Program-made: the position numbers and the translations under genes
Shown: piece after piece, positions 42,178-60,657 of the stretch
How positions within the stretch are numbered: position 1 is the first letter of the stretch
Layout of the letters: each line of letters starts with the position of its first letter
Notes under the pieces: generated by a model
Seen by the model: the letters and a program-made list of their open reading frames with translations, nothing else
What the model was told of the DNA's origin: nothing
The model's database searches: none
Assembly (NCBI GenBank): GCA_963706325.1
Contig: CAVPLT010000007.1
Location: 96,001 to 160,000, forward strand
Direction: 5' to 3'
Source: an uncultured Nitrospiraceae bacterium
Lineage (GTDB): Bacteria > Nitrospirota > Nitrospiria > Nitrospirales > Nitrospiraceae
DNA length: 64,000 bases

Positions 42178-42193
42178 CTGTCAATTCTAACAG
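42178..42193. promoter_or_regulatory. Palindromic site copy 1 (CTGTCAATTCTAACAG)
   Basis: One of five related sites; upstream of the SYLF gene. Confidence 0.7.
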
Positions 42194-42395
42194 TAGCCAG
42201 AGGAGGACGGCCCACATACGATTGCCTGCTGAGATTCCACGGTGTCACCGGACATCCTGTCTGGGCCTGAGGCTGATGGAGTTCGTGGTGCCACGCATCG
42301 CAAGACAACGGGAAACGCGCGGGCCTGTCGGCGTGGCCACTCTCTTAAACGGCGGCCAGGAGATAGACCCGATTGTTCAACACAAGGAGGAGTTC

Positions 42396-43115
42396 ATGAT
42401 ACAAGTATGCTCGAAATCCCCATCCGCCACAACCAGGCTCGGGTTGATGACCGCGGTATTGCTTGCAACGATGGCCGCGGTGACCGCCATACCCAGCGTG
42501 GCCGATGCTTTCAGGGAGCAGCAGCAATTGGTGGATAAAGCGAAAATGACGATCGAAGCCTTCGCTGCTGATCCGAGCGCGAGAGCCTGGGGCCGCGAGT
42601 TCAAACACGAGGCTAGGGCCTTGTTCATCGTACCGCAATTCTTACGGGGTGCCTTTGTGTTCGGGGGAGCGGGAGGCAGCGGTGTGCTGGTCGTCCGCGA
42701 CGAGAAGACCAACAAGTGGTCCGAGCCCGCGTTTTACACCATCGGTTCCGCCAGTTTCGGCCTGCAAATCGGAGGAGACGTGTCGGAGATGGTCTTTGTG
42801 GTGCGGACTCAGAAAGGGCTGGAAGAGTTCTATCGGAGCGATTTTAAACTCGGGGCGGACGTCAGCATGGCGGTGGGATCGGCAGGCGAAGGGGGGTCGA
42901 TGAAAGGGATTACGGCGGACATGGTCGCTTATGCGAGAAAAAAGGGGGTGTTTGCGGGGGTTTCAGCGGACGGCTCAATCATTGCGGTGTCGGATGATGC
43001 CAACGCGACCTATTACGGCCAACTCGTACGTCCGACAGACATCATCGTCAAAGCGACTGTCAGCAATCCGAGATCCGCCGACCTGCGCAATGCGGCAGCC
43101 AAGTTGGCGCAGTAA
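42396..43115 (+). CDS. Exported lipid-binding SYLF (Ysc84) domain protein
   Basis: GAFVFGGAGGSGVL, WSEPAF, SFGLQIGG, GVFAGVS, ANATYYG. Confidence 0.9.
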   Translation: MIQVCSKSPSATTRLGLMTAVLLATMAAVTAIPSVADAFREQQQLVDKAKMTIEAFAADPSARAWGREFKHEARALFIVPQFLRGAFVFGGAGGSGVLVVRDEKTNKWSEPAFYTIGSASFGLQIGGDVSEMVFVVRTQKGLEEFYRSDFKLGADVSMAVGSAGEGGSMKGITADMVAYARKKGVFAGVSADGSIIAVSDDANATYYGQLVRPTDIIVKATVSNPRSADLRNAAAKLAQ

Positions 43116-43347
43116 TGCCGGGCTTCTCCGGCACTTCTGTTTGGCGGGTGCGGGCGTCTCCGCGACCGTCGCCATTGCCCTGTTTCGGGCGCAGCCTTCT
43201 TCGATCGGCGAGGAAAAGGAGTCCGGGTTCGTCCTAACAATCACAGGCACCAGGCAAAGGAGGATGCTGATTCAATCATTTTTCATCGACCAGTAAGAGC
43301 ATGGACAGGTTCGTTGTTTTTTGCACATCACACCAAGGAGGATTCTG

Positions 43348-43833
43348 ATGAAATCAGTTGTCAGCGTGATCGCAGCGGGAATGATTCTCTGTGCCGTGCC
43401 GGCGTTCGCCGAAACGGCAGGCAATGCCGACACCAGCATGGGAATCTTGATGGAGAAGATCAAGGCGGACAAGAAGCTGTTGGTCGCCAGCAACATGGAG
43501 TTGACCGAAGCGGAAGGCAAGGCCTTTTGGCCCTTGTACGAGGCGTACCAGAAGAAGCTACACAAATTGAACGATCGGCTAGGCAAAACCATTTCGGAGT
43601 ATGCGGATGCCTATAACCAAGGCAAGGGCACGGTCGCAAACGACACCGCCAAGAAGCTGATCCATGAAGCGATCGCGGTTGAGGAGGACGAGGTGAAGCT
43701 GAAGCACACCTATGCGGATAAGATCGGCAAAGTGCTGCCGGCGGCCAAGATGGCGCGGTACATTCAAATCGAGAATAAAATCCGTACGGTCATCAAGGCC
43801 GAGCTCGCCAAACAGATTCCGTTAGTCTATTAG
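43348..43833 (+). CDS. Exported helical protein (paralog of 49422-49895)
   Basis: Signal peptide; ADKKLLVASNM...FWPLYEAYQ...ARYIQIENKIR. Confidence 0.88.
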   Translation: MKSVVSVIAAGMILCAVPAFAETAGNADTSMGILMEKIKADKKLLVASNMELTEAEGKAFWPLYEAYQKKLHKLNDRLGKTISEYADAYNQGKGTVANDTAKKLIHEAIAVEEDEVKLKHTYADKIGKVLPAAKMARYIQIENKIRTVIKAELAKQIPLVY

Positions 43834-43846
43834 GTGCCGGACCGAG

Positions 43847-43896
43847 CTGGCGGGGTCGCCGAAACAAGGTGCCCCGCCAGGCGGTTGGCCGTTTTT
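43847..43896 (+). terminator. Possible intrinsic terminator
   Basis: CTGGCGGGG...CCCCGCCAG stem after the stop, T-run shortly downstream. Confidence 0.45.
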
Positions 43897-44283
43897 GATC
43901 ATCGAAGAGAGAAACCACGAGCCAACGAATAACCGGCGTGATTCAGGCCAAACACCTGTGGGTCTGGTTGTTTGTGTAGAACCGCTGAACTGGCAGCTAT
44001 TATCGTTCGGACGGGCTCCCTGCCGTGCCCCGGAACTGCGGGCTCAGGCAGAACGTCCTTGCTCCGCACCTGTGAGACAGCAGAAAACCAATCGCGCTGG
44101 ATAATCTCACGAGACGAGCGGAATGGGCGACGGTTCGAGGTTTCGGAGCTTCGAACCCCGAATCGCGGATCGCGCCTTTCTCGAATGTCTCGCGTTCACG
44201 CGAAAGGGTATAGGGCCGCTCGCGTTGGGAGAACACAACATTCGTGGACCTGGGATCAGGTGAAGCATCACAAGGCACAACTC

Positions 44284-45627
44284 ATGACTAGTTGGGGACA
44301 TGTCTTAAGCGGAAAGGATGCCTGTGCGGCCAAGAAGTTGTGCCGGTCATGCGCGCCTCTTGTGTGGGCCTGTGTCTGCGTAGTCCTGGTTGCCTGTGCG
44401 GTGAGTAAAGAGCGGGAGGCGCTCCCGCCCCCGCCGGCGCCGGGACCGCTCGGATGGGAGATTCCTCCTCCATTCTCCGCACAGGCGCTGCTGCCGGCGG
44501 ACTGGCTCAAGGGGCCACACCACCTGGTTCAGGACGAAGTCGTCAACGACGGCGCCCAGCACCATTTTGTCGTGACCTCTGACTTCGGAATATTTCCCGC
44601 GACCGGCGCAGCCGTGCTTCGGACTCGCGTCGGAGAAACTGAGGCGATTGCGGCGCTGAAGGATGCGCGCAAATCGGAGGTGGTCGCCGATGCCCTCAAG
44701 TTTCAGCTTCTCCATCCCTTGCGCGGCGCGAAGATGCTGATCATGGAGCCTGTCCGTGTCGGGAGGAGTGTCGCCGGAGGGCTCTTGGAGTTTCTCGCTA
44801 TGCCGGGGCGCGCGAGCAAGTTTGAATGGAGCGACCGGGAAGATTCTGTCACGAAGTCGACGATCGGGTTTTCGTATATGAAGCGAAACCTCGCGTTTCA
44901 GTTCGGGGTGGACCCCTATTCGTCCAATCCGGAGCTGCAGGATAACCTGAACGAACTGGCCTGGATCGCCTTCACCGCTGATTTGGCCCCTCAGTTCGCG
45001 TATTTCTTTATGCCCGGAGGCGCCGTCCTCTGGGCGACCTTTAGCGGCACCCGCTGGACCTCATACCTCGATGAGCAAGTCCGCGACAAATCAGCCGGGG
45101 ATCTGCGTGCCTACAACCGTGACAAATTGGACAAGATGGGAGTCAGTGAGGAGGACATCCATCAGTTCTTTCTCAATCCGATCTACTCTCCTCGACACTG
45201 GACCATCATCACCACGGCGCTCGATGAGTTAACAGGTGTCGATAACCGTGAGGCCTTCCTCGCAGTGGCGAGGGAAGCACCTTCCGAGGACATGGCTTTG
45301 TTTTACCAGCACGTGGCGGAGATGACGCGTGGCTATCACCTGCATGTCGGCGCCGGTAATCGGCTGCTGGCGATGCCGCGCATCCCGGCACTCTATACCA
45401 AGGATCGGGCGCTCGTCGTGATGCTGCCCGTCGATTACCTGTTCTGGACCTCGCGCGTCGCGCGCGTTGCGCAGGCCCTCACAGCTTCTGTGCCTAGTCA
45501 ACCGCGTATCGCCCGGCGCGAACTCTGGATCGCGGGGAATGTTTCGCCGCGTGCCAGGCAGGAATTCGAAGCGATGGGGTGGACGGTGTATGAGCAGGTA
45601 TCGGCCCAGCTCAATCCACCGGCCTGA
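44284..45627 (+). CDS. Hypothetical lipoprotein (start uncertain)
   Basis: LVAC lipobox; FGVDPYSSNPELQ; 5' ORF extension looks non-coding. Confidence 0.75.
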   Translation: MTSWGHVLSGKDACAAKKLCRSCAPLVWACVCVVLVACAVSKEREALPPPPAPGPLGWEIPPPFSAQALLPADWLKGPHHLVQDEVVNDGAQHHFVVTSDFGIFPATGAAVLRTRVGETEAIAALKDARKSEVVADALKFQLLHPLRGAKMLIMEPVRVGRSVAGGLLEFLAMPGRASKFEWSDREDSVTKSTIGFSYMKRNLAFQFGVDPYSSNPELQDNLNELAWIAFTADLAPQFAYFFMPGGAVLWATFSGTRWTSYLDEQVRDKSAGDLRAYNRDKLDKMGVSEEDIHQFFLNPIYSPRHWTIITTALDELTGVDNREAFLAVAREAPSEDMALFYQHVAEMTRGYHLHVGAGNRLLAMPRIPALYTKDRALVVMLPVDYLFWTSRVARVAQALTASVPSQPRIARRELWIAGNVSPRARQEFEAMGWTVYEQVSAQLNPPA

Positions 45628-45888
45628 GCGCTGCGGCCACGTGATGCGCAACGTGTGCTGTGGTCTTGAATCGGACCCGCAGGAGAGTGGGCGATGTCGA
45701 TCGCGGCTCACGCCATCATCCCGGTCGTACAGAGGGATGAGGGAGCGGCATGAAAGAAGTTGCGAAAACGAGACGTATCGATCCGATCAAGTAACCGTAG
45801 GGAAATCAGGCCGATCATTCGAGCCCTGTACGCAGATGTGAGTAGGTTTTGTCGGGCATCTGCTACGGAAAACCAGTTGCGGTGGGAA

Positions 45889-47058
45889 TTGCCTCTTCTG
45901 AAGGGGTATCTTCGCGCGATCTCGGCTTCGGTTCTCTTCTGGGTGCTGCTGTGTATGGGTATAGCCGCTGCTGACGAGAAGGCTCCTGCTCAGAGCGACT
46001 GGCATTATGGGGCCTACCTCGACGGCAGCTATCTCCTCAACTTCAACTTCCCGGAAAACCATCGGTGGCGGAGTAAGATCACGACGCCTCGAACGAACGA
46101 ATTTGCGCCGAACATGGTCATGGGGTACGTGCGTAAAGATGTGACGCCGGACTCGCGATGGGGCCTTGAAGTGGGGGGGCAGGGAGGCTACGACACCAGT
46201 CTCTTAGTGCCCCAACCTACGCCGCAGGGGGATAAGCCCGTCCCGGGAGCGGATGTTTTACGCCATCTCCACCGGGCCAATGTGTCCTATCTGGCGCCCG
46301 TGGGGAATGGGCTGACGCTCACAGCGGGGCTGTTTAATAGCTTCATCGGGTACGAGTCGTACCTTGCCCGCAATAATTACAACTACACCAGATCTTACAT
46401 GGCCGATAATGCGCCCTATTTCATGACCGGCGTGTCCGCGCAATATGCCGTCGATGAGACCTTAAAGTTTGCCGTGTATGTGATCAACGGATACAACAAT
46501 CTTTCACGACCGAATGTGGTGCCCAGCTATGGCACTCAAGTCATGTGGAAGCCGGCGCCTCCCTGGACGCTCACGCAGAATTTCTATTATGGCCCGGATC
46601 AATTCGACACCGATTTGAGGTTCTGGCGGTTTTTCTCAGACAGCATTGTAGAGTGGAAGGATGGAGACTGGACGCTCGCGTTCGCCTACGATGTCGGCAC
46701 GGAGAACGCCGTTGAGCAGGCCGGTCATCCCAGAGTCTTTTGGACCAGCGCGACAGCGGTTGCACGGTACCATGTTCATGGCCCCTGGAGCATCGCGTTT
46801 CGTCCCGAACTGTACTGGGATCGAAACGGACGGGTGACCGCTGCAGAGCAGTTGCTCACCGCCGTGACAAGCACTCTTGAGTACCGGATCGCCGTTGGCC
46901 GCCAGACGGGTATCCTTCGCCTGGAATATCGCTTCGACCGGTCGACCGGTTCTCAGGGTGGCTATTTCGCGAGAGGGGAGATCGCGCCCGGTGTTATCGG
47001 GTTGACCCCGAACCAGAATCTGATCATCTTGGGATTACTGTGGGCGTTTGACTCATAG
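45889..47058 (+). CDS. Outer-membrane beta-barrel porin (BBP2/DUF1597-like)
   Basis: Signal peptide; SFIGYES....NYNYTRSY, P(Y)FMTG; aromatic beta strands; start uncertain. Confidence 0.85.
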   Translation: MPLLKGYLRAISASVLFWVLLCMGIAAADEKAPAQSDWHYGAYLDGSYLLNFNFPENHRWRSKITTPRTNEFAPNMVMGYVRKDVTPDSRWGLEVGGQGGYDTSLLVPQPTPQGDKPVPGADVLRHLHRANVSYLAPVGNGLTLTAGLFNSFIGYESYLARNNYNYTRSYMADNAPYFMTGVSAQYAVDETLKFAVYVINGYNNLSRPNVVPSYGTQVMWKPAPPWTLTQNFYYGPDQFDTDLRFWRFFSDSIVEWKDGDWTLAFAYDVGTENAVEQAGHPRVFWTSATAVARYHVHGPWSIAFRPELYWDRNGRVTAAEQLLTAVTSTLEYRIAVGRQTGILRLEYRFDRSTGSQGGYFARGEIAPGVIGLTPNQNLIILGLLWAFDS

Positions 47059-47283
47059 TAACGCCCTGTGCAGGGCAGGTGAATCACGGCGAGAGGTAGT
47101 GGGTGCACGGAGGCGTTCCGTTCTTTCGGTCTCCGCCGGAGGAGGCAGCACGAACCATCCGTACTCGATTGAGTAGATGCACTTGTTCGGAGCCGCCTCA
47201 GGATTCGATCAGCGATGAACGTTCGTTGTGCGCAAGACGATTGTCATCGAACCGGCGTATTAATACCTTCGAGTGAAAATCTA

Positions 47284-48255
47284 ATGCTGCAATCGCGCGA
47301 CACCCTCAGCCGGTTATGCGCGGGGGTGCTGGGGGCAATGGCGTTGGTTGCGTCATGCCCTCTGACCGCCGCAGGAGAGGACTCACTCAGGGACTCAGCG
47401 GCGAACATCGATCAGGTGTTGCCGGAGACCGAATTGGATGAGGCGACAGAAGAATCTGAGGCCGCTCCCCGGGAAGGAGGTTTATTCAAAAGGTTGGGCC
47501 GTCAACAGGTGACGCCGGAGGAACAGGCACAGGCTGAGCATCTCCGAAAATTAGCCGCCAAGTATGGGACCGATCCCACTGCCATCGTGGGACGAATACA
47601 GTCATCGTCTGCCTATTACGACCTTCACCAAGGAGGGCACGCCGTCGATGCTACGGCCCGTATCGATTTACCGCTGCAGCGAAACTTCCTGCTTCGCGTG
47701 GATGTGCCATTTCTGAAATGGAGCGAGCCCAATCGTCTCCGCACCTCTGTCTCGAGAGGTCTGAGCGACATGGCTGTCACGGCTGCATGGCGGGTGTACA
47801 ACACCCCCGAATATGCCGTAGCCTTCGGCGTGATTTCGACATGTCCCACTGCCGCCGAGACAGCGTTGGGTCTCGGCAAGTATACAGTCGGACCAACCAT
47901 CGCCACAGTCAGATTCGTCTAGGGATGGGAGTCGTTCTCGATCGGATTATTTACACAACAGATTTCCGTCGGCGGCGATGCAAGCCGGAATTCCGTTAAC
48001 CGTTCGAAATTCCAGGCACAAGTTAATTCGTTCTAGGCTGATCGGTGGTGGAGTATTGTGCAGGCCGTATTCCAAGCCGATTGGGATCGATGCGCGAAAA
48101 CCAGTCTGACGCTGGAATTCGAAGTTGGTCGGAGTCTGGTCGGCCGCTGGGGGGTATATGTGCGTCCGTGCGTCGGGATATTCGAGCGGGATCTGATCGG
48201 AGCTACGACTGGAATGGCGAGGGCGTCGTGCGTTATATGTTCCGGAGTTTCTACC
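47284..48255 (+). pseudogene. Disrupted outer-membrane/transporter-like beta-barrel gene
   Basis: Frame continues through TAGs at 47920 and 48034; the C-terminus YDWN...RYMFRSF lies in a shifted frame. Confidence 0.7.
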
Positions 48256-48359
48256 AGGGGCAGGCTGGGCAACAAACCGTGGCGGAAGAGTCGTCACCGA
48301 TGGATGGAATGGACCGGTCCGGAAGGCCTGGTTCTCTCAGTTGTTTGGGGGGAGGTACA

Positions 48360-48941
48360 ATGATCCCTGATGTTCCGACCGGCGGGCGTGGTCGTTCAGG
48401 CCCCTCGCGTCTGTGGTCGATCGGGCTCCTGCTCTATCTCATGACCGCGACAGGATGTCCCAGAATCGTGTCTCTCGATTATCAGCCGAGCAATCAGCTC
48501 AAAGGAGGAGGCACGATCGGGACGGCACCGTTCCGCTATCAAGCCTCCGATGAGCATCATGTTCGTCCGCGTCAGGTAGAAAGCAACTCGTCAGCCACAA
48601 GTGGCTTATTCCTTACCAAGGAAATCGGCGCCTTCTTTTCGGACGCGCTGCGGCTGGAACTCGGCCGGTCGGGGTACACCGTGAATGATTCGAGCGACCG
48701 CATTGTGTCAGGAACCATTACGCGGTTCTATCTCGACTGGAGAAGCGAAGAGGACCGCTGGTTCGAACTGGCGGCGGACTACTCGGTGCAATCGGAAGAG
48801 CGGACTCTCTTCTCCTGGCACTGTTACGTGGTTGAGAAGGGGCAGAACAGACTGATTCAAGACGGGGTTCTAATTCGCACGGGAATAGCAGACTGCATGA
48901 GTCGATTTATCGAAGCCGCGCAGGGCGCGCGGGTTCTCTGA
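48360..48941 (+). CDS. Lipoprotein (YajG-like)
   Basis: GGAGG RBS; ATGC lipobox; DYQP...FSDALRLEL. Confidence 0.75.
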   Translation: MIPDVPTGGRGRSGPSRLWSIGLLLYLMTATGCPRIVSLDYQPSNQLKGGGTIGTAPFRYQASDEHHVRPRQVESNSSATSGLFLTKEIGAFFSDALRLELGRSGYTVNDSSDRIVSGTITRFYLDWRSEEDRWFELAADYSVQSEERTLFSWHCYVVEKGQNRLIQDGVLIRTGIADCMSRFIEAAQGARVL

Positions 48942-49088
48942 ACGGTATGGCTGGCAGCCTCCTGTTCCCTTTCGGTTCAAGTTCGTATGCTACCCTTCGC
49001 CTTCGGTGACGCCCGTGGCGGAGCGATGGTCTTCAATCTGGAACAAAGAAGAGGCGTATTGTCTGGGGGAGAAGGTTAGGGGGGAAAC

Positions 49089-49104: not shown

Positions 49105-49421
49105 TAGCCGGCTCGTCTTGTTGGGGCTAGGTTACTACACTCAGCAGAAATAGCCGCATAGTAGAGAGACAAAAGGATTGTCCGATGCATGGGGGCAACA
49201 AATACTCCTCGACGTGATGCATATTTACAAGCATTGTTTCACTGAATATGACGAATATCGAAGGACAGCTAGCAACGTCGGTCACTTTAGCGTCCCCACG
49301 ATCGTGGATAGGAAGTTTGTCTACTCATCGTTTTATTCCTGAGCCTAATCATGTTTTGTTGCCTGGCTGCGATTCTTAATCGGATGTGGTTCTATGGTTT
49401 AAACACAAGGAGAGATTAATC

Positions 49422-49895
49422 ATGCGTTTGTCGACAACATGTATCTTGGCTGCCGTTGTACTCTTTGGCATGGTGGGGAGCGCGCAGAGTGCTGCAGAAA
49501 CCACCATGGAAATTTTGCTACAGAAGGTGAAGGCGGACAAGAAGCTCCTCGTGGCCAGCAACATGGGGATTACTGACGAGGAAGGCACGAAGTTCTGGCC
49601 GCTCTATGAGGAGTATCAGAAAGAACTGGATCAAATGAATCGTACTCTCGGCAAGACTATCAAGGAATACGCCGATGCCTTCAACAAGGGACCTCTGCCG
49701 AACGATCAGGCGAAGAGGCTGATGGATGAGGTCATTGCGGTTGAGGAAAAAGAAGTGAAAACCAAGCGGACCTACGCCGACAAGATCGGTAAGGTCCTTC
49801 CGGCTGCCAAGACTGCCCGCTACATTCAAATCGAAAATAAGATCCGGGCACTGTTGAAGGCAGAACTTGCAAGTGAGATTCCGCTCGCATATTGA
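49422..49895 (+). CDS. Exported helical protein (paralog of 43348-43833)
   Basis: Long identical peptide stretches shared with the paralog. Confidence 0.88.
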   Translation: MRLSTTCILAAVVLFGMVGSAQSAAETTMEILLQKVKADKKLLVASNMGITDEEGTKFWPLYEEYQKELDQMNRTLGKTIKEYADAFNKGPLPNDQAKRLMDEVIAVEEKEVKTKRTYADKIGKVLPAAKTARYIQIENKIRALLKAELASEIPLAY

Positions 49896-50623: not shown

Positions 50624-52462
50624 ATGAGGAGCCACGCAACTATCTATCGGCTTGTCCCGATCCTGATGCTATCCCTCAGCATCGGATCGATCACGGGTTG
50701 GAAGGTGCCGTCGGTCCTCGCAGAGGACAACAGGCCGCAGCCGACGCTCAGGGACCTGATCGGCGGAAAGGCCAAGGACGAGCAGGCAACGAAACCAGTC
50801 GATCCTGATAGTCTGCAACTCGGGGTTCCCGAAGATCCTCTCGGTCGAGACGTTCCTCGCTCCAGCGTTCGCGGATTTCTCGCGGCGGTCGACAATCGCG
50901 ACTATGCGCGGGCAGCGGAATATCTCGATCTACGGAACCTGCCGACGGATGTCACTCCTGAGCAAGGACAAAAATTAGCGCGGCAGTTGAAGATCGTGCT
51001 AGATCGGGTCCTCTGGATCGATCTGGAGCTTCTCAGCACCAGCCTGGAAGGTGACCGTACGGACAACCTTCCCGTCGTGCGTGACCGCATCGGACGAATT
51101 ACCACGGATGCAGGGAAAGTGTACGACGTGCTGCTCCAGCGGATCCCACGCGGTGACGGCGCGTATATCTGGAAGTTTTCAGGCGCCACGGTGGCTGACA
51201 TCCCAGATCTTTATAAAGAGTACGGCTATGGCCCGTTCGAACGAGCCTTCCCGGCCTTCTTGTTCGATGTCTCGCTGATGGGCATTCACCTCTGGATGTG
51301 GTTGTTGGCTATCGTCATGGGTATTGCGCTGTACCCCGTCGCCATCCTGATCACGAGGTCGGCCATCTATGTCCTGAGTTACTTCAATTCTGATTTGGCC
51401 CAGAGCATCTCCCGCTTCTTCGCAGGACCAATGCAGCTCCTCCTGTGGACAGTCCTGGGGAGAAGTGCCATCCAGGCGGTCGGGCCGTCAGTTGCGGTAC
51501 GCGCTGTTGGACAGGCCCGCACCTTCCAAGTATTCGCGCTGGCCTGGCTGCTCCTACGGGTTGTAGACTTCGCTGCCCACCGGGCAAGTTCGAACCTTGA
51601 TCGCAAAGGTCTGGCAGGAGCCTTGGTGCTTCTGAAGCCATTGGCCCAACTCCTCAAGGCAGTCGCGGTCACGGCCGCCGTGCTGCTCTGGTTGGACAAT
51701 ATTGGCTTCAAGGTGACCACCCTGCTGGCCGGTCTCAGCATCAGTGGAGTGGCCGTCGCGCTCGCTTCGCAGAAGTCGCTAGAAAACATCTTCGCGGCCT
51801 TCACCCTTTTTGCCGCGCAACCGGTCAAGGTGGGCGACTTCTGCCGGTTCGGCGACAAGATGGGGATTGTAGAAGAAATCGGGCTCCGGGCCACCCGTAT
51901 CCGCACCTTGGAACGCAGCGTCATCACCATCGCCAATGCCGAGTTCGCCGGCATGCATCTCGACAATCTGTCCAAACGCGACCGCTTTTGGTATCACCCG
52001 CGACTGGCGCTGCGGTACGAGACGACGCCCGATCAGATCCGCTACATCCTGGTCGAAGTCCGAAAAATGCTCTATGCCCACCCGAAAGTCTTATCGGACC
52101 CCATGCATGTCCGCTTTTCGGGGTTCGGCGAAAGCGCGCTCAACATAGAGCTCTTCGCCTATATCGGGGTGCCCGACTATACCGAATCTCTCGAGGTCGC
52201 GGAGGATCTGAACCTGCGGATCATGGAAATCATCGCCGCCGCCGGTTCCGATTTCGCGCTCCCCGTGGAGATTCAGTACGAGTTGCCGGGGAAACCGTTT
52301 GATGATCAGCGGGCGCAGGCCATTGCAGCGCAGGTGAAGGAGTGGGAAACGAACCGGGCGCTCTACTTGCCGAACTTTCCGAAGGAAAAGATCGCGGAGA
52401 TCAAGGGGTCCCTGGACTATCCGCCGAAGGGGTCACCTCACTATGCCAACACACCGACCTAA
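50624..52462 (+). CDS. MscS-family mechanosensitive channel with periplasmic N-terminal domain
   Basis: LLAGLSISGVAVALASQKSLEN, PVKVGDFC, VEEIGLRATRIRT. Confidence 0.92.
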   Translation: MRSHATIYRLVPILMLSLSIGSITGWKVPSVLAEDNRPQPTLRDLIGGKAKDEQATKPVDPDSLQLGVPEDPLGRDVPRSSVRGFLAAVDNRDYARAAEYLDLRNLPTDVTPEQGQKLARQLKIVLDRVLWIDLELLSTSLEGDRTDNLPVVRDRIGRITTDAGKVYDVLLQRIPRGDGAYIWKFSGATVADIPDLYKEYGYGPFERAFPAFLFDVSLMGIHLWMWLLAIVMGIALYPVAILITRSAIYVLSYFNSDLAQSISRFFAGPMQLLLWTVLGRSAIQAVGPSVAVRAVGQARTFQVFALAWLLLRVVDFAAHRASSNLDRKGLAGALVLLKPLAQLLKAVAVTAAVLLWLDNIGFKVTTLLAGLSISGVAVALASQKSLENIFAAFTLFAAQPVKVGDFCRFGDKMGIVEEIGLRATRIRTLERSVITIANAEFAGMHLDNLSKRDRFWYHPRLALRYETTPDQIRYILVEVRKMLYAHPKVLSDPMHVRFSGFGESALNIELFAYIGVPDYTESLEVAEDLNLRIMEIIAAAGSDFALPVEIQYELPGKPFDDQRAQAIAAQVKEWETNRALYLPNFPKEKIAEIKGSLDYPPKGSPHYANTPT

Positions 52463-52635: not shown

Positions 52636-53529
52636 ATGACGACAATGGAACTCATCGACTACCCTCTCTTACAGAATGTGTTTCATCCCTCCGACTTCAG
52701 CGCCGAGAGCGAAACGGCGTTTGCGCATGCCTTGAAGGCCTCGCTGACTGCCAAGGCGGCGCTGACTATCCTTCACGTGTCGCCGCAACGGGAGGGGGAG
52801 TGGATGGAGTTTCCGGGAGTACGTGAAACGCTTGAACGATGGCACCTCCTTCCCAAGAACAGCCTGCGGTCCGATGTTTCCAAGCTGGGTATCGACGTAA
52901 AAAAAGTCAAAACTGTTCATAAAGACCCCGTAGAGTCCGTCACCGAATATCTGTCCACGCATGCCACCGACCTGATCGTTCTTGCCACCGATCAGAGTAA
53001 AGGGTCTGTGCCGTGGTTCAGCAAGTCGGTTGCGGTTCCAATTGCCCGCGCGTCGCGGCAGATGACCCTCTTTGTCCCTAAAGGCGTGGAGGGATTCGTC
53101 TCCCTAGAGGACGGCTCCATTTCGCTGAAGAATATTTTGATCCCCGTGGCGTCGAATCCAGCGGCCCAGCCATCTATCCAGGCTGCGGTTCGGATGGCGT
53201 GCCGGCTTAACTGCACCTCCGGCGTATTTACAGTACTGCACGTGGGTGAGCGCGAAGGTATGCCTGAAATACGCCTTCCTGAGGTGGCCGGATGGCGGTG
53301 GGACAAGGTGACTAGGCAAGGCGATGTCATCGATGTGATCTGCAAGACGGCGTTGGAGACAGAAGCCGGCTTAGTCGTTATGTCCACCGACGGCCGCAAC
53401 GGCTTTCTCGATGCCTTGCGAGGCAGTCATAGCGAGCGGGTGCTTCGGGAGTGCCCATGTGCACTATTGGCCATCCCTGCCGGCGGGTTCATCGCGACAG
53501 GTTCTGGAGAGCGAACTCAAAAGAAGTGA
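52636..53529 (+). CDS. Tandem universal stress protein
   Basis: HPSDFS, DLIVLAT, GSHSERVLRECPCALL. Confidence 0.9.
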   Translation: MTTMELIDYPLLQNVFHPSDFSAESETAFAHALKASLTAKAALTILHVSPQREGEWMEFPGVRETLERWHLLPKNSLRSDVSKLGIDVKKVKTVHKDPVESVTEYLSTHATDLIVLATDQSKGSVPWFSKSVAVPIARASRQMTLFVPKGVEGFVSLEDGSISLKNILIPVASNPAAQPSIQAAVRMACRLNCTSGVFTVLHVGEREGMPEIRLPEVAGWRWDKVTRQGDVIDVICKTALETEAGLVVMSTDGRNGFLDALRGSHSERVLRECPCALLAIPAGGFIATGSGERTQKK

Positions 53530-53664
53530 CGCGCCGTGACGCTACGCCGCGGCGGATCTTCGCTCGGCTCTCCGCGCATGGTCTGGAATTTGGCCGGCCT
53601 GTTCGCTGTATGAGGCAATGATTGTTGACCCCAGCGCCGAAGATCATGCCAGGGCGAGACAGTG

Positions 53665-54240
53665 TTATTTCGGCGGGAAATGCGTCAACATGTCATGGAT
53701 GGCTTCGCGAAGGAGCTCCTGCCTTGCGTGCGGATCGCGGGAAGGGTCCACTTCGGCCTGGGCGATTCCCCGCCAGACAAGGCGATTCGTTTGTCCATTG
53801 ACGACATCGAGAATCAAGGTGCCTTCCTTATAAGACTGGACATCCGTGACCGTTCGACTTCCTGCCGGCCATCCTCCTCCGTATCCCGGGCGTTCTCCCA
53901 CCCCAAAACCATCGTAATGGCTGATACTGGACATATTGAGCAAATCCTTCAGCGAGGCATAATAAGAAACGTAGAAGTCCGGCTTTTCGGCATCAACTCT
54001 TCTATAGCCCTTTAACGTTAACTGGCCCTCCACCGTCCCGCGAACGCGAATATCGGTTAGGGAATTATCAAGCCGCGGGTCACCGGTCGGTTCTTGATGA
54101 CTCGCCACCCAATCAAACGTTCGGAAAGTTGAAAATTCAGCCCCTGGGTCATGGTCATAAGTCACCTTCAGAGAGGAGCAGCCGAATTGTAGAGTGATGA
54201 GTAACAGGAAAGATAAAACACGCTTCATCATTGACACCAT
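53665..54240 (-). CDS. DUF4136 lipoprotein
   Basis: QFGC lipobox; YKEGTLILD...LVWRG...FPP. Confidence 0.88.
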   Translation of the reverse strand: MVSMMKRVLSFLLLITLQFGCSSLKVTYDHDPGAEFSTFRTFDWVASHQEPTGDPRLDNSLTDIRVRGTVEGQLTLKGYRRVDAEKPDFYVSYYASLKDLLNMSSISHYDGFGVGERPGYGGGWPAGSRTVTDVQSYKEGTLILDVVNGQTNRLVWRGIAQAEVDPSRDPHARQELLREAIHDMLTHFPPK

Positions 54241-54446
54241 TGTATCGCTTGAGATATTCCCATCGTCATGCGCATGGGCCTCCTCGAAGATTCAGCCTGT
54301 TGATCCGGTCCGTGCAGGGCGTGGAGACCTTGCATTGCGATATGGCCGACGAGAGCAGGGCCGAGAGGCGCGGACACGATACCTCACTCCTTTCTGAAAG
54401 TAAACGAGTGACGCTCCGCGAGCTCAGTTGCGGCTCCCCCGTGCAC

Positions 54447-54462
54447 CTGTTAGTTTTGACAG
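54447..54462. promoter_or_regulatory. Palindromic site copy 3 (CTGTTAGTTTTGACAG)
   Basis: Lies between the divergent DUF4136 genes. Confidence 0.75.
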
Positions 54463-54538
54463 TCTCTGCATCTGTTTCAAACAGTAAGATTTGCCCCTCT
54501 CACCGATGGGGGGTGACGTGAAGGAGGGAGCGAGGGTT

Positions 54539-55108
54539 ATGTTGTTTGGCTGGCGGACCGGTCTGATTATCTTTATTCTCACTAGTGTCATCGGGTGTAC
54601 GAATATTGATGTCCGGACTGACTTTGATCGAACGGCGGATTTCACCAAATTTCAGACGTTCGCCTTTGAGGGCATGTCCGATCTTAATCAAACCGGTGTA
54701 TTGAGCAATAATCTTACTCGCAAACGCATTGAGACGGCCATCACGCGAGAACTGACGAATAAAGGGTTGAGGCTGGTCGGCTTGGAGCAGAGTCCGGATC
54801 TGCTCGTTCACTATTGGATTGGAATCAAAGAAAAACAAAGACTGGACACGACCGGTCCGTCCATGGGGGCCGCCTATGGCTGGCGCGGCAGGTATGGATA
54901 TGGGGCGGGCTACAGCGGTGTAACCACCTATGAATATAGGGAAGGGACCTTGATCACCGATCTCATCGAATCAACGAAGAAGGAACTGGTTTGGCGAGCC
55001 ACGACAGTGGCGAATTTGGAAGACACCACGGAAGAGAATATCGAGCTGGGCAATAAGGCGATTGCCAAAGCATTTGAAAGTTTTCCGCCCTCCAAAACTC
55101 AGCCATGA
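54539..55108 (+). CDS. DUF4136 lipoprotein
   Basis: VIGC lipobox; YREGTLITD...LVWRA...FPP. Confidence 0.88.
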   Translation: MLFGWRTGLIIFILTSVIGCTNIDVRTDFDRTADFTKFQTFAFEGMSDLNQTGVLSNNLTRKRIETAITRELTNKGLRLVGLEQSPDLLVHYWIGIKEKQRLDTTGPSMGAAYGWRGRYGYGAGYSGVTTYEYREGTLITDLIESTKKELVWRATTVANLEDTTEENIELGNKAIAKAFESFPPSKTQP

Positions 55109-55148
55109 GGAGGGCTTGGACAGAGTCATTTTATTCGAGGAGGACGAG

Positions 55149-55889
55149 ATGAGAAAGTCATTGAAAGAGTGGGGTCAATTTGGTCGCCGTTTACTCATGA
55201 TCGCGGTCGTCATGGGATTCGTGTCCATGGGTACGACGCAATTGGCGTGTGCCGATGATGTGGAAAATATGAAGGAGGCTGAGCTGATTCTTAACAGTGC
55301 CCTGGAGACGTGGCAGAACTTCACGGACGACCCGGCCAATTCCGGTTTCCGTGCCCATGTCAAGGAAGTTAAAGGAGTGTTGATCCTTCCCAAGCTCCTC
55401 AAGGGGGCTTTTCTGTTCGGTCTTGAAGCGGGAAACGGCGTGTTACTTGCTCGGGACGAAAAAACCAACACGTGGAGCGAGCCGGCTTTCTATGAGACCA
55501 CGACCGTCGGCTTCGGTTTGCAAGCGGGTGTAGAGAACACGGAATCGGTACTTCTCATCCAGACGGTGGAAGGAATCGAAAGCTTGATGAGCAATAGTTT
55601 CAAATTCGGCGGAGATGTGTCGGCGGCCCTCGGCTCGCAGGGCACCGGCATGGAGGGCTCTACCTCGGCCAATCTCGGAAAAGATTTCGTCACGTATTCC
55701 AGAACGAGCGGCTTGTTCGCCGGTGTGTCGGTTGAAGGCGCCTCCATAAGAACGCGAGATGATCTGAATAAATCCTATTACGGGTCCGCCGTGAGACCGA
55801 CCGGCATCCTGACCGTTCGGGATGTTAAACCGAATCCCCGATCACAGGCACTTCATGACGCAGTGGTGAACGTTGCCGGTGGAAAGTAG
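55149..55889 (+). CDS. Exported SYLF (Ysc84) domain protein, second copy
   Basis: GAFLFG..AGNGVL, WSEPAF, FGLQAG, GLFAGVSVEG. Confidence 0.9.
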   Translation: MRKSLKEWGQFGRRLLMIAVVMGFVSMGTTQLACADDVENMKEAELILNSALETWQNFTDDPANSGFRAHVKEVKGVLILPKLLKGAFLFGLEAGNGVLLARDEKTNTWSEPAFYETTTVGFGLQAGVENTESVLLIQTVEGIESLMSNSFKFGGDVSAALGSQGTGMEGSTSANLGKDFVTYSRTSGLFAGVSVEGASIRTRDDLNKSYYGSAVRPTGILTVRDVKPNPRSQALHDAVVNVAGGK

Positions 55890-56003
55890 CAGTTGCAAAG
55901 GGACAGCGTTGATTCTTAGGAGAACGACCGATATGGCCGCGGGCAGTAAGCGGAACATGATGCGCGTGGCCGGCATCTGCGCCTCAAGATAAAGGAGACC
56001 GGC

Positions 56004-56447
56004 ATGAAATTCTCGGGCATGATGCAGGGTCTCGTACTGATAGCGGCGATCGGGCAGGCCTTGACGGCTTGCAGCACGGTGGAGCAGGCCCCTGCTTCAC
56101 CGTTAGAGGAGGTCGCAGTGACAGATTTCCACAACGTGGCAGGGAATTGGGAAGGTGTGCTGGTGCAGTCTCCGCCGGCCCGATCACGATATGACGATTG
56201 GGTCCGTCTCACTATTAAGGAAGATGGAGCGTTTCATTTTGAAGCGTACCGCACCATCGGAGTATTCAGCGGAGCGGGTCAGTTCACGCTGGACCAGGGC
56301 GCACTCCTCGCTAAATCAGAGAAAGGCAGGATTTCTGCTCGACTCTACCGGCATGCCGGCCAGCGTGATCGACGCTTGAAGGCTGAAGGGACATCGGGAG
56401 ATGGGATCACCTACTACGCTGACCTGACCCCCGCCCGCCGACGCTAG
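56004..56447 (+). CDS. Hypothetical lipoprotein
   Basis: AAGGAG RBS; LTAC lipobox; AGNWEG beta motif. Confidence 0.8.
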   Translation: MKFSGMMQGLVLIAAIGQALTACSTVEQAPASPLEEVAVTDFHNVAGNWEGVLVQSPPARSRYDDWVRLTIKEDGAFHFEAYRTIGVFSGAGQFTLDQGALLAKSEKGRISARLYRHAGQRDRRLKAEGTSGDGITYYADLTPARRR

Positions 56448-56842
56448 TGGTATGTTCGAGGCAGTGCAGACGGCTGCGGAACGACCGCAAAATATGTTCG
56501 GTGGCGCTCACCTTCGTAAACCCCTTTCAGCATGACGACCTTCTGCTCGCGGACTGCGGAGTAATCCCCTCCCATCCACTATGCGGCGTGGGTCTGACCA
56601 TGTCGCGACTGCTGAATCCGGTCAGGATTCAGGAAATACTTGTTTATGAAGGAACAAGCATGCGAGAGCACCAGTCATGAATGACTGGTCCGAGTAGCAG
56701 TATTAAGCTTCGGTAAAATGCTACCGCGGCCATTGCAAATCGTCCCAGCTTCGCCCTATGCTGGTGCCCACGTCGCGTTCTGGCAGGCTATTTCGTCGGT
56801 AGCGCGGTGCGGAACCACGACTGAGCAAGTTCGCGTGATGCT

Positions 56843-58735
56843 ATGCGACCAAGCCAACCTCAGAAGCGCAAGTTTGCCCTTGTTCTACCACGCTGTGCGT
56901 CTTCCAGCTTGAGCGTGGTGAGAAAACCGCAGCACCTTCAATCAATCATCGATGCCTATCCGGTCTCTGTCGTCGTCATCGACGAACAGAAAGTGATCCG
57001 GTATGTCAACGCGGCCTGGCGCCGGTTTGCCGATCAATACGGCTGTCAGGCTCATTCATTTGGAATTGGACTCCCTTATCTACAGGTCTGCCGGAAGTCT
57101 AAAGGTCGGCTCGGCAGTGCCGGACGGCCAATCGCGAAGGGAATTGAGCGTCTGTTTTCAGGGGCTATCGAAGAATTTTCACATGAATATGCATGTGGCC
57201 CGGCCGCAAAACGCCTACGGTTCATGTCGAATGGACGCTGCTTTGCCGAGGGACGAACCCTCGCCCGCCGCGTCCTGTTGATACATCAATCGGTCGCACC
57301 AGCCAAACGCGCCATCGAGTTAATTAAGAGACGGGAGAGCAGCCTCAAAAAGTTGTTGGAGTCGACTCCGTTTGTCCCGTGGGAGGCAGATGCCAAAACG
57401 TGGCGCTTCACGTATGTTGGCCCTCAAGTCCAGGCGTTGCTGGGATATCCTCGTGCGGAGTGGTACGAGCCGAATTTTTGGATTACTCACCTGTATGCCG
57501 AAGATAGTGAGCGGACAATAAAGGCATACCAGGAGCTGGTGACCAACCGATCGCACTACGAACTCAAGTACCGAATGGTGTCGAAATCCGGACGGCCGGT
57601 ATGGTTGCGCAATTTTGTGATCGTGGATGGAAGGCATGGGAAGTCCAGAGTGTTCCGAGGCTTTTTCTGCGATGTGACCGCAGACGCGCAAGTGCAAGAA
57701 CGCGACACCTTGCTGCGTATGTTATCCGAGTCCATCGACGAAATCTTTTGGTTTGTGGGGCTGAACCCTTTACGCTTTATTTATCTCAGCCCCGCCGTCG
57801 AGCGGATCATGGGACGGGAAGCAGGTCAATTCTATAGCCGTGACGATTTTTGGTTACAGTGCATCCATGAAGAAGATCGCCAGCGGGTGCAGGAAGCCTT
57901 CTCCGGTTGGTTGAATGGAACATTTGCTGAGTACAAGGTTGAATTCAGAATCGTATTGCCCGATGGCCGGATTCGGTGGCTTGCTGACCATGGCGCATTG
58001 GTCTATGACGGCGGTGGACGTACAAGCTTTGCGACCGGCGTCGCCAAGGACATCACCGCAGAAAAGCAGAATAAAGAAAATTCGCGTCGGTTAAGTGGCC
58101 AGTTGATTTCTGCCCAAGAAGAGGAGCGCAAACGGATCGCGCGTGAGTTACATGACAATGTGAGTCAGGGATTGAGCCTGCTGACCGTCGAGTTGGAACA
58201 GTTGTGTCGACATCAGGACGCCACGTCACACCAACAGGATGCCCTGGCTGCCATGAAACGGCAACTGAAAGTTCTGTCGTCGGACGTCCATGCATTGTCG
58301 CATCAATTGCATCCAGAAAAACTCAAGCACCTTGGACTGGTGTCCGCTATGCGGGCCATGTGCCGAGATGTAGATCGGGCCGGGCTGAGGGTACATTTCG
58401 CTGACCATAGAATTCCACGCCAGGTGCACGACGATATATCCCTCACCCTCTATCGCGTCATGCAAGAGGGGTTGCATAACGTGAGAAAACACAGCGGGAC
58501 CAGCGAAGTTGAGGCAGACTTGTCGAAAGTCTCAAACGCTTTGATTCTTCGTCTGCGTGACCATGGTAGAGGGTTTGATCGGAGCAAGGCGGAATCCGCC
58601 GGAGGGCTCGGATTATCGAGCATGCGGGAACGGCTCTCCTCGGTAGGGGGATCGCTGCTCATCCAATCTGCTCCCGGTGAAGGCACCCTGCTTGAAGCCA
58701 GGGTGCCATTGTTCGATGATGGGCTCCTTTCGTAA
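56843..58735 (+). CDS. Cytoplasmic multi-PAS sensor histidine kinase (HisKA_3, NarX/UhpB type; start uncertain)
   Basis: Three PAS/PAC units; EERKRIARELHD, QEGLHNVRKHS, DHGRGF, GLGLSSMRER; no TM segments. Confidence 0.93.
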   Translation: MRPSQPQKRKFALVLPRCASSSLSVVRKPQHLQSIIDAYPVSVVVIDEQKVIRYVNAAWRRFADQYGCQAHSFGIGLPYLQVCRKSKGRLGSAGRPIAKGIERLFSGAIEEFSHEYACGPAAKRLRFMSNGRCFAEGRTLARRVLLIHQSVAPAKRAIELIKRRESSLKKLLESTPFVPWEADAKTWRFTYVGPQVQALLGYPRAEWYEPNFWITHLYAEDSERTIKAYQELVTNRSHYELKYRMVSKSGRPVWLRNFVIVDGRHGKSRVFRGFFCDVTADAQVQERDTLLRMLSESIDEIFWFVGLNPLRFIYLSPAVERIMGREAGQFYSRDDFWLQCIHEEDRQRVQEAFSGWLNGTFAEYKVEFRIVLPDGRIRWLADHGALVYDGGGRTSFATGVAKDITAEKQNKENSRRLSGQLISAQEEERKRIARELHDNVSQGLSLLTVELEQLCRHQDATSHQQDALAAMKRQLKVLSSDVHALSHQLHPEKLKHLGLVSAMRAMCRDVDRAGLRVHFADHRIPRQVHDDISLTLYRVMQEGLHNVRKHSGTSEVEADLSKVSNALILRLRDHGRGFDRSKAESAGGLGLSSMRERLSSVGGSLLIQSAPGEGTLLEARVPLFDDGLLS

Positions 58736-58742
58736 GGATGAC

Positions 58743-59396
58743 ATGAATAATCTCCGGTTGCTTCTTGCCGACGACCACCTCCTGCTCCTCGATGCGTTCA
58801 AGCGTTTACTTGAGGAACGGTATGACGTCATCGGGACGGCGGTCAACGGTCTGGAGCTGGTTACGTCGGCAATTCGTTTGAAGCCGGACATCATTATCGC
58901 CGATGTGGCCATGCCTCTTCAAAACGGATTGGACGCGGTCAAGCGTGTGAAGAGGTTTCTACCGCATGTCAGAATCATTATCTTGACTGCCATCGAAGAT
59001 CCGGACCTCGCCCAGCGCGCGCTCTCTTCCGGTGTTTCCGGGTATCTGCTGAAGAGCTCCGCAGCCGCGGAATTGTTCGAGGCGCTGCAGGCTGTCTGCT
59101 CTGGCCGACTCTATGTGTCGGGGTCTATTGCCAAGATGCTTGAGGATTGCTCCGCAACCGGCCGAAAAAAACAATCCCCGGAACGAACCCTTAGCGCCCG
59201 TCAGCGTCAGGTCCTGCAATTGTTGGCTGAAGGACATACCATGAAGCAGGCGGCGGCGGAGTTGGGGGTCACGCCGCGTACGATCGCGTTTCACAAATAT
59301 CATGTTATGAAGCTGTTTCGAATGAACTCCAACTCCCAGCTGATCCAGTTGGCTCTGACTGAGCGTCTAATCTCAAATCCCCCTCAATCCTGTTAG
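58743..59396 (+). CDS. NarL/FixJ family response regulator
   Basis: LADDH, D.AMP..NG, GYLLK; LuxR HTH LSARQRQVLQLLAEG. Confidence 0.93.
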   Translation: MNNLRLLLADDHLLLLDAFKRLLEERYDVIGTAVNGLELVTSAIRLKPDIIIADVAMPLQNGLDAVKRVKRFLPHVRIIILTAIEDPDLAQRALSSGVSGYLLKSSAAAELFEALQAVCSGRLYVSGSIAKMLEDCSATGRKKQSPERTLSARQRQVLQLLAEGHTMKQAAAELGVTPRTIAFHKYHVMKLFRMNSNSQLIQLALTERLISNPPQSC

Positions 59397-59405
59397 TTTT
59401 GACAG
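59390..59405. promoter_or_regulatory. Palindromic site copy 4 (CTGTTAGTTTTGACAG)
   Basis: Identical to copy 3; overlaps the regulator stop codon. Confidence 0.75.
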
Positions 59406-59470
59406 TTCCACATAGTCGGCATTGTGCGTAATGTGTCAGGACATCCACTGATCACATACAAAGGTGCAAT

Positions 59471-59927
59471 GTGTGCGCTTCGTTCCGGATTCCTGCTACT
59501 CCGGGGCCGGGAAACAAAGAGGTTCGGCCTCGGCCCAGCGTCGTACTGGCCGACGACAATGCTTTGTTGCTGGATCGAGTAGCAAACCTGCTCGCTGAAG
59601 ATTTCGATGTCGTGGGCCTGGTGTCAAATGGCCGCGATTTGCTGGAGTTTGTCGACCGCTGCCATCCGGACCTGATCGTGTCCGATATTACGATGCCGTA
59701 TGTGGACGGGTTAGAAGTGGCACGCCAACTTCATGAGCGCCGGCGCGACCAGCAAAATCATCTTTCTAACCGTACACGACGATTCGGATTATCTACGGGA
59801 GAGCTTCTTAGTCGGGGCGATGGGATACGTCATTAAAGACAGACTTATTCCAGACCTGCTGCAAGCCATGCATGAAGTCCTGGCAGGACGGCCTTATGTG
59901 TCGGCCTCACCGAATCTACGCCTCTAA
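59471..59927 (+). pseudogene. Frameshifted single-domain response regulator receiver
   Basis: VLADDN...SDITMP..DGL in one frame, SKIIFLTVH...GYVIK in another; shift near 59738. Confidence 0.82.
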
Positions 59928-59958
59928 CGGTGCACATTTCTCCTCCGGCGGTACGCAC

Positions 59959-59974
59959 CTGTCACTTTTGACAG
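59959..59974. promoter_or_regulatory. Palindromic site copy 5 (CTGTCACTTTTGACAG)
   Basis: About 90 bp upstream of the Rieske gene. Confidence 0.75.
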
Positions 59975-60612: not shown

Positions 60613-60657
60613 ACAAATGAAATGTTCGAGAGAAAGACAACTCAGGGGGAGGACAAT

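What the first reader, a model, noticed from the sequence alone, without database searches (positions are those of the whole stretch)
42178..59974. Five-copy palindrome CTGTYA-N4-TRACAG outlines a putative regulon across the island
Seen: sites at 42178, 49089, 54447, 59390 and 59959. Copies 3 and 4 are identical, and copy 2 is their reverse complement. Each lies upstream of a transcription unit: the SYLF operon, the helical periplasmic protein, the divergent DUF4136 pair, the receiver gene and the Rieske-nirK-cytb cluster. I noticed none in the first 42 kb. Established: NarL/LuxR-type regulators bind short dyads as dimers. Inference: this is the operator of the adjacent regulator (58743-59396), co-regulating envelope genes and nitrite reduction.
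Basis: partly seen in the sequence, partly recalled or inferred. Interest (0 to 1): 0.82.

Follow-up and report, generated by a model that had tools for sequence, protein, structure and literature searches.

The report
Two-component activator box, Nitrospira accessory regulon
A 16-letter DNA palindrome sits at a fixed distance before promoter-like signals of about twenty gene units in this Nitrospira-type genome and travels with one unstudied family of response regulators across distant bacteria, so it is likely that regulator's docking site and would switch on cell-envelope, sugar-breakdown and (here) an extra nitrite-reductase gene set: a new regulon built on a textbook mechanism.

Summary
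The five copies are real (0 in 100 shuffles). The genome has 14 exact copies against 0.3 expected, 11 within 100 kb that extends beyond the window. A TAnnnT hexamer starts 23-24 nt past the box, placing the dyad near -43.5, as for NarL at yeaR. The box tracks one clade of NarL-family regulators (helix RT[VI]AFHKY), whose only copy here is 58743-59396: 13 of 14 genomes with it have 6-20 boxes; 237 without have 0-3. It is also the top de novo dyad beside 80 metagenomic relatives. The core equals the afe lux box, but LexA, LuxI and AHL-type LuxR were not found here, and LuxR genes do not track the box. Nitrite reduction is a peripheral member; envelope and fermentative genes dominate. The signal is unknown and binding is untested. 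This scan already reported the same system on other DNA (e1-9949556, e1-9957109). Verdict: an undescribed regulon of a known kind.

The parts
42178..42193 (.). Box 1; -10-like TACGAT at 42217-42222 on +, pointing at the SYLF gene
42396..43115 (+). SYLF/Ysc84-domain protein, first gene behind box 1 (start after AAGGAGG)
   Evidence: PF04366; start
43348..43833 (+). Small protein with a signal-peptide-like N-terminus (read by eye), no Pfam/NCBIfam hit; look-alike of 49422-49895
45760..47058 (+). Beta-barrel porin (BBP2); start uncertain
   Evidence: PF07642
49089..49104 (.). Box 2; -10-like TAGGTT at 49128-49133 on +
49422..49895 (+). Small protein with a signal-peptide-like N-terminus, first gene behind box 2
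50624..52462 (+). MscS-family mechanosensitive channel
   Evidence: PF00924/PF21082
52588..53529 (+). Universal stress protein
   Evidence: PF00582
53665..54240 (-). DUF4136 protein, divergent from box 3; no -10 at the fixed distance on this side
54447..54462 (.). Box 3; -10-like TAAGAT at 54485-54490 on +
54539..55108 (+). DUF4136 protein, first gene behind box 3
   Evidence: PF13590
55149..55889 (+). Second SYLF/Ysc84 protein
   Evidence: PF04366; start
56843..58735 (+). Sensor kinase: three PAS domains, HisKA_3, HATPase; no predicted membrane helix (maximum 19-residue hydropathy 1.28); start uncertain
58743..59396 (+). NarL/FixJ-family response regulator; receiver residues D10/D11, D54, T82, K104 kept; recognition helix TPRTIAFHKY; the only such helix in the genome; likely reader of the box
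59390..59405 (.). Box 4, overlapping the regulator's last codon and stop; -10-like TAATGT at 59429-59434 on +
59471..59927 (+). Single-domain receiver; one extra base at 59738 in this assembly, absent in contigs of three studies
59959..59974 (.). Box 5; -10-like TAGCAT at 59998-60003 on +
60064..60612 (+). Rieske iron-sulfur protein, first gene behind box 5
   Evidence: PF00355
60658..62157 (+). Copper nitrite reductase (NirK) with C-terminal cytochrome c; a second, accessory copy, 39% identical to the nirK at G000:C6:126949
   Evidence: TIGR02376 over cut-off
62234..63559 (+). Cytochrome b with C-terminal cytochrome c

Best explanation
The palindrome (A/C)CTGTCA-N4-TGACAG(T) is likely the binding site of the adjacent NarL-family response regulator (58743-59396), which would, once phosphorylated by the neighbouring PAS kinase, bind as a dimer centred near -43.5 and recruit housekeeping RNA polymerase to promoters with a poor -35 element. 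Shown: the copies, their clustering, the TAnnnT hexamer 23-24 nt downstream, and the co-occurrence of box and regulator clade. Inferred: binding, activation rather than repression, kinase pairing, and the single-domain receiver as a box-induced phosphate sink or relay. The targets (SYLF and DUF4136 proteins, porins, MscS, Usp, sulfatases, an RND pump, PPK2-aldolase-phosphoketolase-glycogen phosphorylase, and here an extra Rieske-NirK-cytochrome b unit) point to a stress or energy-limitation programme. My best guess for the cue is low oxygen or acid/energy stress (about 50%); no call identifies it.
For: Geometry in G000: orientation-blind, 12 of 21 sites have a -10-like hexamer of 4 bits or more at offset 23/24, against 0-4 at 34 other offset pairs. 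I saw the offset by eye first; it was then repeated on foreign DNA: 61 of 157 distinct sites at offset 24 and 29 at 25, against 0-12 at the other offsets 10-44. E. coli NarL binds a 16-bp site at -43.5 just upstream of the -35 (PMC10853779, passages and section 22). Co-occurrence: 13 of 14 genomes with the T[VI]A[FY]HKY codons have 6-20 relaxed boxes; all 237 without have 0-3. In the genus, only G046 and G051 of 38 relatives carry clusters, and they give the two best regulator hits, both with TPRTVAFHKY. Beside 85 foreign relatives there are 164 hits in 60 loci, against 0-7 with 30 permuted matrices. CTGTC-N6-GACAG is the top de novo dyad in the 80 metagenome loci (66 seen, 0.47 expected, 36 loci), and a matrix seeded only on those loci ranks the five window sites among the 14 best in G000. 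The regulators form one clade (100/99; 29 rows), and the Nitrospira-type members fall in at least four separate branches. Close homologues end in PCQF/PCQL, the box read as codons. The residues aligned to NarL's base-contacting K188, V189 and K192 are A182, F183 and Y186, invariant or nearly so in 29 homologues (the metagenome loci were selected on this motif, so they are no test of it).
Against: G147 has the variant helix AYHKY and only 1 relaxed box. 25 of 85 foreign loci have no hit, many of them short contigs. 9 of 21 G000 sites lack a strong -10 at the fixed offset. 7 of the 14 positive genomes are one genus, so the Fisher p (8e-21) overstates. 7 of 8 box-rich relatives tested also carry an AHL-type LuxR domain elsewhere. 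The sensory domains of neighbouring kinases vary, so no single cue can be read off.
Confidence: 0.87

Rival explanations
1. The box is a lux box read by a quorum-sensing LuxR (AHL type, or the divergent LuxR-like gene at G000:C7:220370-221221), making this a cell-density regulon.
For: The core equals the afe-box AGCTGTCAA-NN-TTGACAGCT (PMC3759942, passages). A LuxR-like gene lies inside the cluster and has a close homologue in box-rich G267. PF03472 is found in 7 of 8 box-rich relatives tested. A paper title links quorum sensing to nitrogen-oxide fluxes in Nitrobacter (PMC5080386, search listing only).
Against: No PF00765 or PF03472 match in G000 (96% complete; the PF00765 control rang nowhere, so that blank is weak). 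In the genus the divergent LuxR is found in G001 and G007, which have 0 boxes, and not in G046 or G051, which have clusters. PF03472 is present in box-poor G041 and G044 and not found in the complete G238, which has 8 boxes. The tested Nitrospira NspR1 box is different: ACCTGGCGGTTCCGCCAGGT (PMC8553950, passages).
Confidence: 0.04
2. The regulator binds the box but represses (or both activates and represses) by covering the -35 region.
For: Several copies contain TTGACA in their right half, and the dyad directly abuts the -35 position.
Against: That TTGACA would lie 24 nt from the -10, too far to serve as the -35. The true -35 position is degenerate, with only its first T conserved (0.87), which is typical of activator-dependent promoters (established knowledge).
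Confidence: 0.06
3. It is a LexA/SOS box (CTGT-N8-ACAG, recalled consensus), or a repeat or recombination footprint without regulatory meaning.
For: The pattern contains CTGT-N8-ACAG. Satellite copies lie near tRNA genes and integrase or resolvase genes.
Against: No LexA DNA-binding domain in G000, while the control rang in 10 of 14 genomes. CTGT-N8-ACAG as such is not enriched (50, against 26-59 for other spacers). I saw no DNA-repair gene among the Pfam-annotated neighbours. Flanks are unrelated apart from the -10, and Rfam has no match in 40-64 kb.
Confidence: 0.01

Closest known systems
E. coli NarL at the yeaR promoter (PMC10853779; passages and section 22 read)
   Same: NarL/FixJ-family receiver-HTH protein with a HisKA_3 kinase; 16-bp dyad centred at -43.5 abutting the -35; the residue aligned to NarL K174 (alpha-CTD contact) is the invariant K168.
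   Different: Different box sequence; base-contact positions A/F/Y instead of K/V/K; R178 not kept; far below the NarL cut-off (108 against 250 bits); kinase is soluble with PAS domains, not a NarX-type membrane sensor.
afe-box / AfeR of Acidithiobacillus ferrooxidans and lux boxes of AHL quorum sensing (PMC3759942, passages read)
   Same: Identical core CTGTCA-N4-TGACAG, placed at the -35 region of a sigma70-type promoter; same HTH fold.
   Different: The likely reader has a phospho-receiver, not an autoinducer-binding domain; no luxI was found; the box tracks the response-regulator clade, not luxR.
Nitrospira NspR1/NspI quorum sensing (PMC8553950, passages read)
   Same: Same genus group; CT-N12-AG frame.
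   Different: Different inner sequence; tiny regulon (nspI, a GGDEF/EAL gene, one regulator gene); AHL-dependent.
E. coli EvgAS acid-resistance and mycobacterial DosRST regulons (recalled, no call)
   Same: NarL-family regulators that switch on stress sets with Usp, efflux, sulfatase or HdeD/Slp-type genes; DUF308 and Slp genes occur near boxes.
   Different: Sequences are distant (EvgA 56 bits against cut-off 251); a functional likeness only.

Membership tests
NarL/FixJ-family two-component operator | Receiver plus LuxR-type HTH with conserved phosphorylation residues | tested here: met
   PF00072 and PF00196; D11, D54, T82, K104 invariant in 29 homologues
NarL/FixJ-family two-component operator | Adjacent HisKA_3 kinase with intact H-box | tested here: met
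   PF07730 and PF02518; RELHD motif
NarL/FixJ-family two-component operator | Dyad near -43.5 from a sigma70-type -10 | tested here: met
   the start site itself is inferred, not mapped
NarL/FixJ-family two-component operator | Box co-occurs with the regulator | tested here: met
   13 of 14 against 0 of 237; 60 of 85 loci
NarL/FixJ-family two-component operator | Phosphorylation-dependent binding and activation | not testable with these tools
   needs EMSA and reporter assays
NarL (nitrate-responsive NarXL) itself | NarL equivalog score and 7-2-7 box | tested here: not met
   108 bits against cut-off 250; different box
AHL lux box / LuxI-LuxR regulon | Box sequence like a known lux box | tested here: met
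   equals the afe-box core
AHL lux box / LuxI-LuxR regulon | Autoinducer-binding LuxR that tracks the box | tested here: not met
AHL lux box / LuxI-LuxR regulon | Cognate luxI | tested here: inconclusive
   none found in G000, but the control rang in no genome
LexA/SOS regulon | LexA in the genome and boxes at repair genes | tested here: not met
FNR/CRP anaerobic regulon | TTGAT-N4-ATCAA (recalled consensus) at island promoters | tested here: not met
   0 exact and 4 one-mismatch in the 117-kb region, against 9 and 175 genome-wide

The most novel reading that the evidence does not exclude
A cross-phylum clade of phosphorylation-controlled regulators has converged on the quorum-sensing lux/afe box, so pre-wired envelope and fermentation modules move between soil bacteria on tRNA-anchored islets and plug into whichever host carries the regulator. 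In the many Nitrospira that also carry an AHL-type LuxR, the same promoters could be read by both a stress kinase and a quorum signal. The sister clade (helix TVEFHK) reads CTAGG-N6-CCTAG with the same geometry, giving a two-residue recognition code.
Probability: 0.15. Interest if true: 0.72.

Novelty: new member of a known kind. Interest (0 to 1): 0.42.

Why it matters
It gives a precise, testable regulon for Nitrospira-type nitrifiers and other soil bacteria that have almost no genetics: one regulator, one box, about twenty promoters in this genome. It groups many uncharacterised envelope proteins (SYLF/Ysc84, DUF4136, DUF4403, DUF1254/1214) with phosphoketolase, glycogen and PPK2 genes and an extra NirK, hinting at a survival or fermentative mode in a nitrifier. 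It also warns that lux-box scans in these bacteria can return a two-component regulon rather than quorum-sensing targets. The mechanism itself is textbook.

Tried and rejected
LexA box. AHL quorum sensing and the island's divergent LuxR-like gene. Sigma54 enhancer: no TGGC-N8-TGC at any consistent place near the 21 sites, only scattered hits in 4. FNR/CRP boxes in the region are at background level. Structured RNA: no Rfam hit in 40-64 kb. TTGACA inside the box as the -35: it would need a 24-nt spacer. TVEFHKA paralogues as readers: no site of 10 bits or more in 7 of 7 loci around them. Single relaxed matches in regulator-free genomes: of 5 loci fetched, G041 and G168 lie inside long open frames, and the match shared by G011, G044 and G054 lies at the edge of the open frame of one gene; not followed further. 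Viral contigs: 40 single matches, no peak at offset 24 (2 of 39). Plasmids: no tblastn hit at E 1e-40. PDB: no close relative, best E 1.7e-25 VraR. The palindrome at 56672 differs at invariant positions and was not found in any other fetched locus. Literature: no paper held the motif string, and searches listed nothing on this regulator clade; SecR has a different box (PMC13199381, passages); PMC12342949 (passages) does not mention this regulon in the passages seen. The library lacks most subscription papers, and I read no supplements. My gene calls come from a home-made ORF caller, and the -10 weights were recalled approximations of the E. coli consensus.
Full report
Observation. The pattern matches five times, at the stated coordinates, and never in 100 shuffles. 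With two mismatches only two more sites appear, at chance level. The window is G000:C7:96001-160000. Close homologues of its regulator are labelled Nitrospira or Nitrospiraceae by their sources. The genome holds 14 exact copies with a 4-nt spacer and 0-1 with any other spacer from 0 to 11; 0.31 are expected. Eleven lie in C7:138-238 kb. A matrix adds seven near-copies of 17 bits or more; 20 of these 21 lie outside called genes or at a gene end, and the exception overlaps a weak 97-aa call. In 38 relatives of the genus, the 19.9 kb around the sites match only in pieces of about 1 kb or less (only 7 candidates per genome were scored), so this is accessory DNA although its G+C is ordinary.

Promoter anatomy. 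Reading past each box toward the next gene, a TAnnnT hexamer begins 23-24 nt after the last G. Scored blind to orientation, 12 of 21 sites pass 4 bits at offsets 23/24, against 0-4 at the other 34 pairs. I found this offset by eye, so the test that counts is on foreign DNA: 61 of 157 distinct sites at offset 24, 29 at 25, and 0-12 at the other offsets from 10 to 44. The box would span about -51 to -36, centre -43.5, and abut a -35 position where only the first T is kept. E. coli NarL activates yeaR from a 16-bp site at -43.5 just upstream of the -35 (PMC10853779, passages and section 22). Activation is inferred from this geometry. All five window boxes point to + strand genes.

Who reads it. 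G000 has 25 LuxR-type HTH genes, but only the window's regulator has the helix RT[VI]AFHKY. Among 38 genus relatives, clusters of the strict box occur only in G046 (3) and G051 (5). These two give the best regulator hits and share the helix; seven loci around TVEFHKA paralogues have no site. In an even draw of 251 genomes of the class (G000 included), 14 carry the helix codons. Thirteen of them have 6-20 relaxed boxes, G147 (variant AYHKY) has 1, and all 237 others have 0-3; the reversed-pattern control gives 0-4. Seven of the 14 are one genus, but the regulators of these genomes fall in at least four separate branches of a well-supported clade (45 rows, 100/99). Outside the group, 5 gammaproteobacterial loci and the best 80 of 610 metagenome loci give 164 hits in 60 of 85 loci, against 0-7 for 30 permuted matrices. 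Without using G000, CTGTC-N6-GACAG is the top spaced dyad in the 80 loci, and a matrix seeded there puts all 14 exact G000 copies first. Look-alike clusters are mostly Acidobacteriota, also Nitrospirota, Gemmatimonadota and Pseudomonadota (a lead only).

Self-wiring. A box lies between 13 nt before and 106 nt after the regulator's stop in 10 of 14 foreign Nitrospira-type loci. In G267 it is read as the codons for P-C-Q-F-stop, and homologues end in PCQF or PCQL; in the window a one-base difference gives S-C-stop. In the window, G267, G238 and G195 the next gene is a receiver-like ORF; in G046, G051 and G209 a receiver-like ORF lies elsewhere behind its own box. The window's receiver looks frameshifted, but contigs from three studies lack the extra base at 59738. 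A box-induced receiver would act as a phosphate sink or relay (inference). The kinase has three PAS domains and no membrane helix. Its second PAS recurs in many neighbours, but other loci have membrane-anchored kinases, so the cue is not determined.

Targets. In G000 the units behind boxes hold SYLF/Ysc84 proteins, DUF4136, porins and beta-barrels, MscS, Usp, a sulfatase, an RND pump, an MGH1-like glycosidase and an alpha-amylase-family enzyme, and the run PPK2, aldolase, phosphoketolase, glycogen phosphorylase, phosphoglucose isomerase. Pyruvate formate-lyase, acetate kinase and serine dehydratase lie in the same region; operon limits are inferred from gene order. Homologues of many of these recur, reshuffled, near boxes in other Nitrospira-type genomes (output partly cut). 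Across all foreign loci the commonest ORFs directly behind a box are receivers or regulators (34), an outer-membrane beta-barrel (12), and kinases, MscS, OmpA-like and sortase-domain proteins (5 each), sulfatases (4). The NirK is a true copper nitrite reductase with a cytochrome c tail, only 39% identical to the genome's other nirK. No close full-length copy was found in 38 genus relatives; copies occur in G267, G172 and G195 but not G180 or G238. A box lies directly before the unit in G000 and G267, about 0.9 kb before it in G195, and not within the 10 kb fetched in G172. Nitrite reduction is thus an optional member.

Rivals. The core equals the afe-box (PMC3759942, passages), so quorum sensing was the main rival. 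G000 gave no AHL-binding or LuxI match (the LuxI control was silent). Its divergent LuxR-like gene occurs in two box-free relatives and not in the two box-rich ones of the genus, though G267 has it. PF03472 is in 7 of 8 box-rich relatives but also in 2 of 2 box-poor ones, and was not found in the complete, box-rich G238. Cross-reading cannot be excluded, but LuxR does not explain the distribution. LexA was not found, and FNR boxes are at background.

Standing. No paper in the library held the motif string, and eight further searches listed nothing on this clade. Earlier notes of this scan reached the same reading on neighbouring DNA of this genome (e1-9949556) and in another genome (e1-9957109); I had formed and tested the reading before seeing them, and they are not independent support. 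They gave me the sister motif CTAGG-N6-CCTAG, which I checked: 22 exact copies in G000, 12 of 22 with a -10 at offset 24, some beside TVEFHK paralogues, none exact in the 85 AFHKY loci. Verdict: a real, well-supported, apparently undescribed regulon of an ordinary mechanistic kind; interest 0.42.

Noticed in passing
G000:C4:898-921 kb, C7:314-330 kb, C5:52-64 kb: The satellite boxes lie next to tRNA genes (Leu, Lys, Asn) with integrase, integrase-like or resolvase genes. The C4 and C7 islets carry paralogues of island genes (DUF4136, SYLF, sulfatase pieces, beta-barrel, Slp), as if pre-wired modules were inserted at tRNAs.
   Followed up: partly
G000 genome-wide, e.g. C1:15893, C4:793566, C7:696119: Sister palindrome CTAGG-N6-CCTAG, 22 exact copies, same -10 offset, some beside TVEFHK regulators of the sister group; suggests a small recognition code.
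   Followed up: partly
window 59738: One extra base in this assembly splits the receiver gene; contigs of three studies lack it.
   Followed up: yes
window 56670-56689: Perfect palindrome ACCAGTCA-TGAA-TGACTGGT upstream of the kinase gene; unique in the genome and not found in other fetched loci.
   Followed up: partly
L106:1370-2221 (G000:C7:220370-221221); paralogue at C5:338370: Divergent LuxR-like gene flanked by single-domain receivers; found in 3 of 39 genus genomes and in G267.
   Followed up: partly
window 60064-63559: Rieske, NirK-cytochrome c and cytochrome b-c in one unit suggest a dedicated quinol-to-NirK electron path; rare in the genus.
   Followed up: partly
G000:C7:165-183 kb and 229-238 kb: Phosphoketolase, glycogen phosphorylase, pyruvate formate-lyase with its activase, acetate kinase and phosphotransacetylase in a nitrifier-type genome; the two PPK2 genes (165014, 182972) look like identical copies; a lone ATP synthase gamma gene at 163658.
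   Followed up: no
window 63561-64000 and beyond (C7:159666-160397): Glucose-6-phosphate dehydrogenase C-terminal part only, right after cytochrome b; looks truncated.
   Followed up: no
viral loci L144-L183: Several related viral contigs share an 18-bp version of the palindrome with common flanks and a -10-like hexamer at offset 22 (14 of 39); probably a separate phage operator.
   Followed up: no
window 49133-49421 and 42222-42395: Long predicted leaders (about 280 and 165 nt) behind boxes 2 and 1; no Rfam hit and no small ORF with a clear ribosome site.
   Followed up: partly
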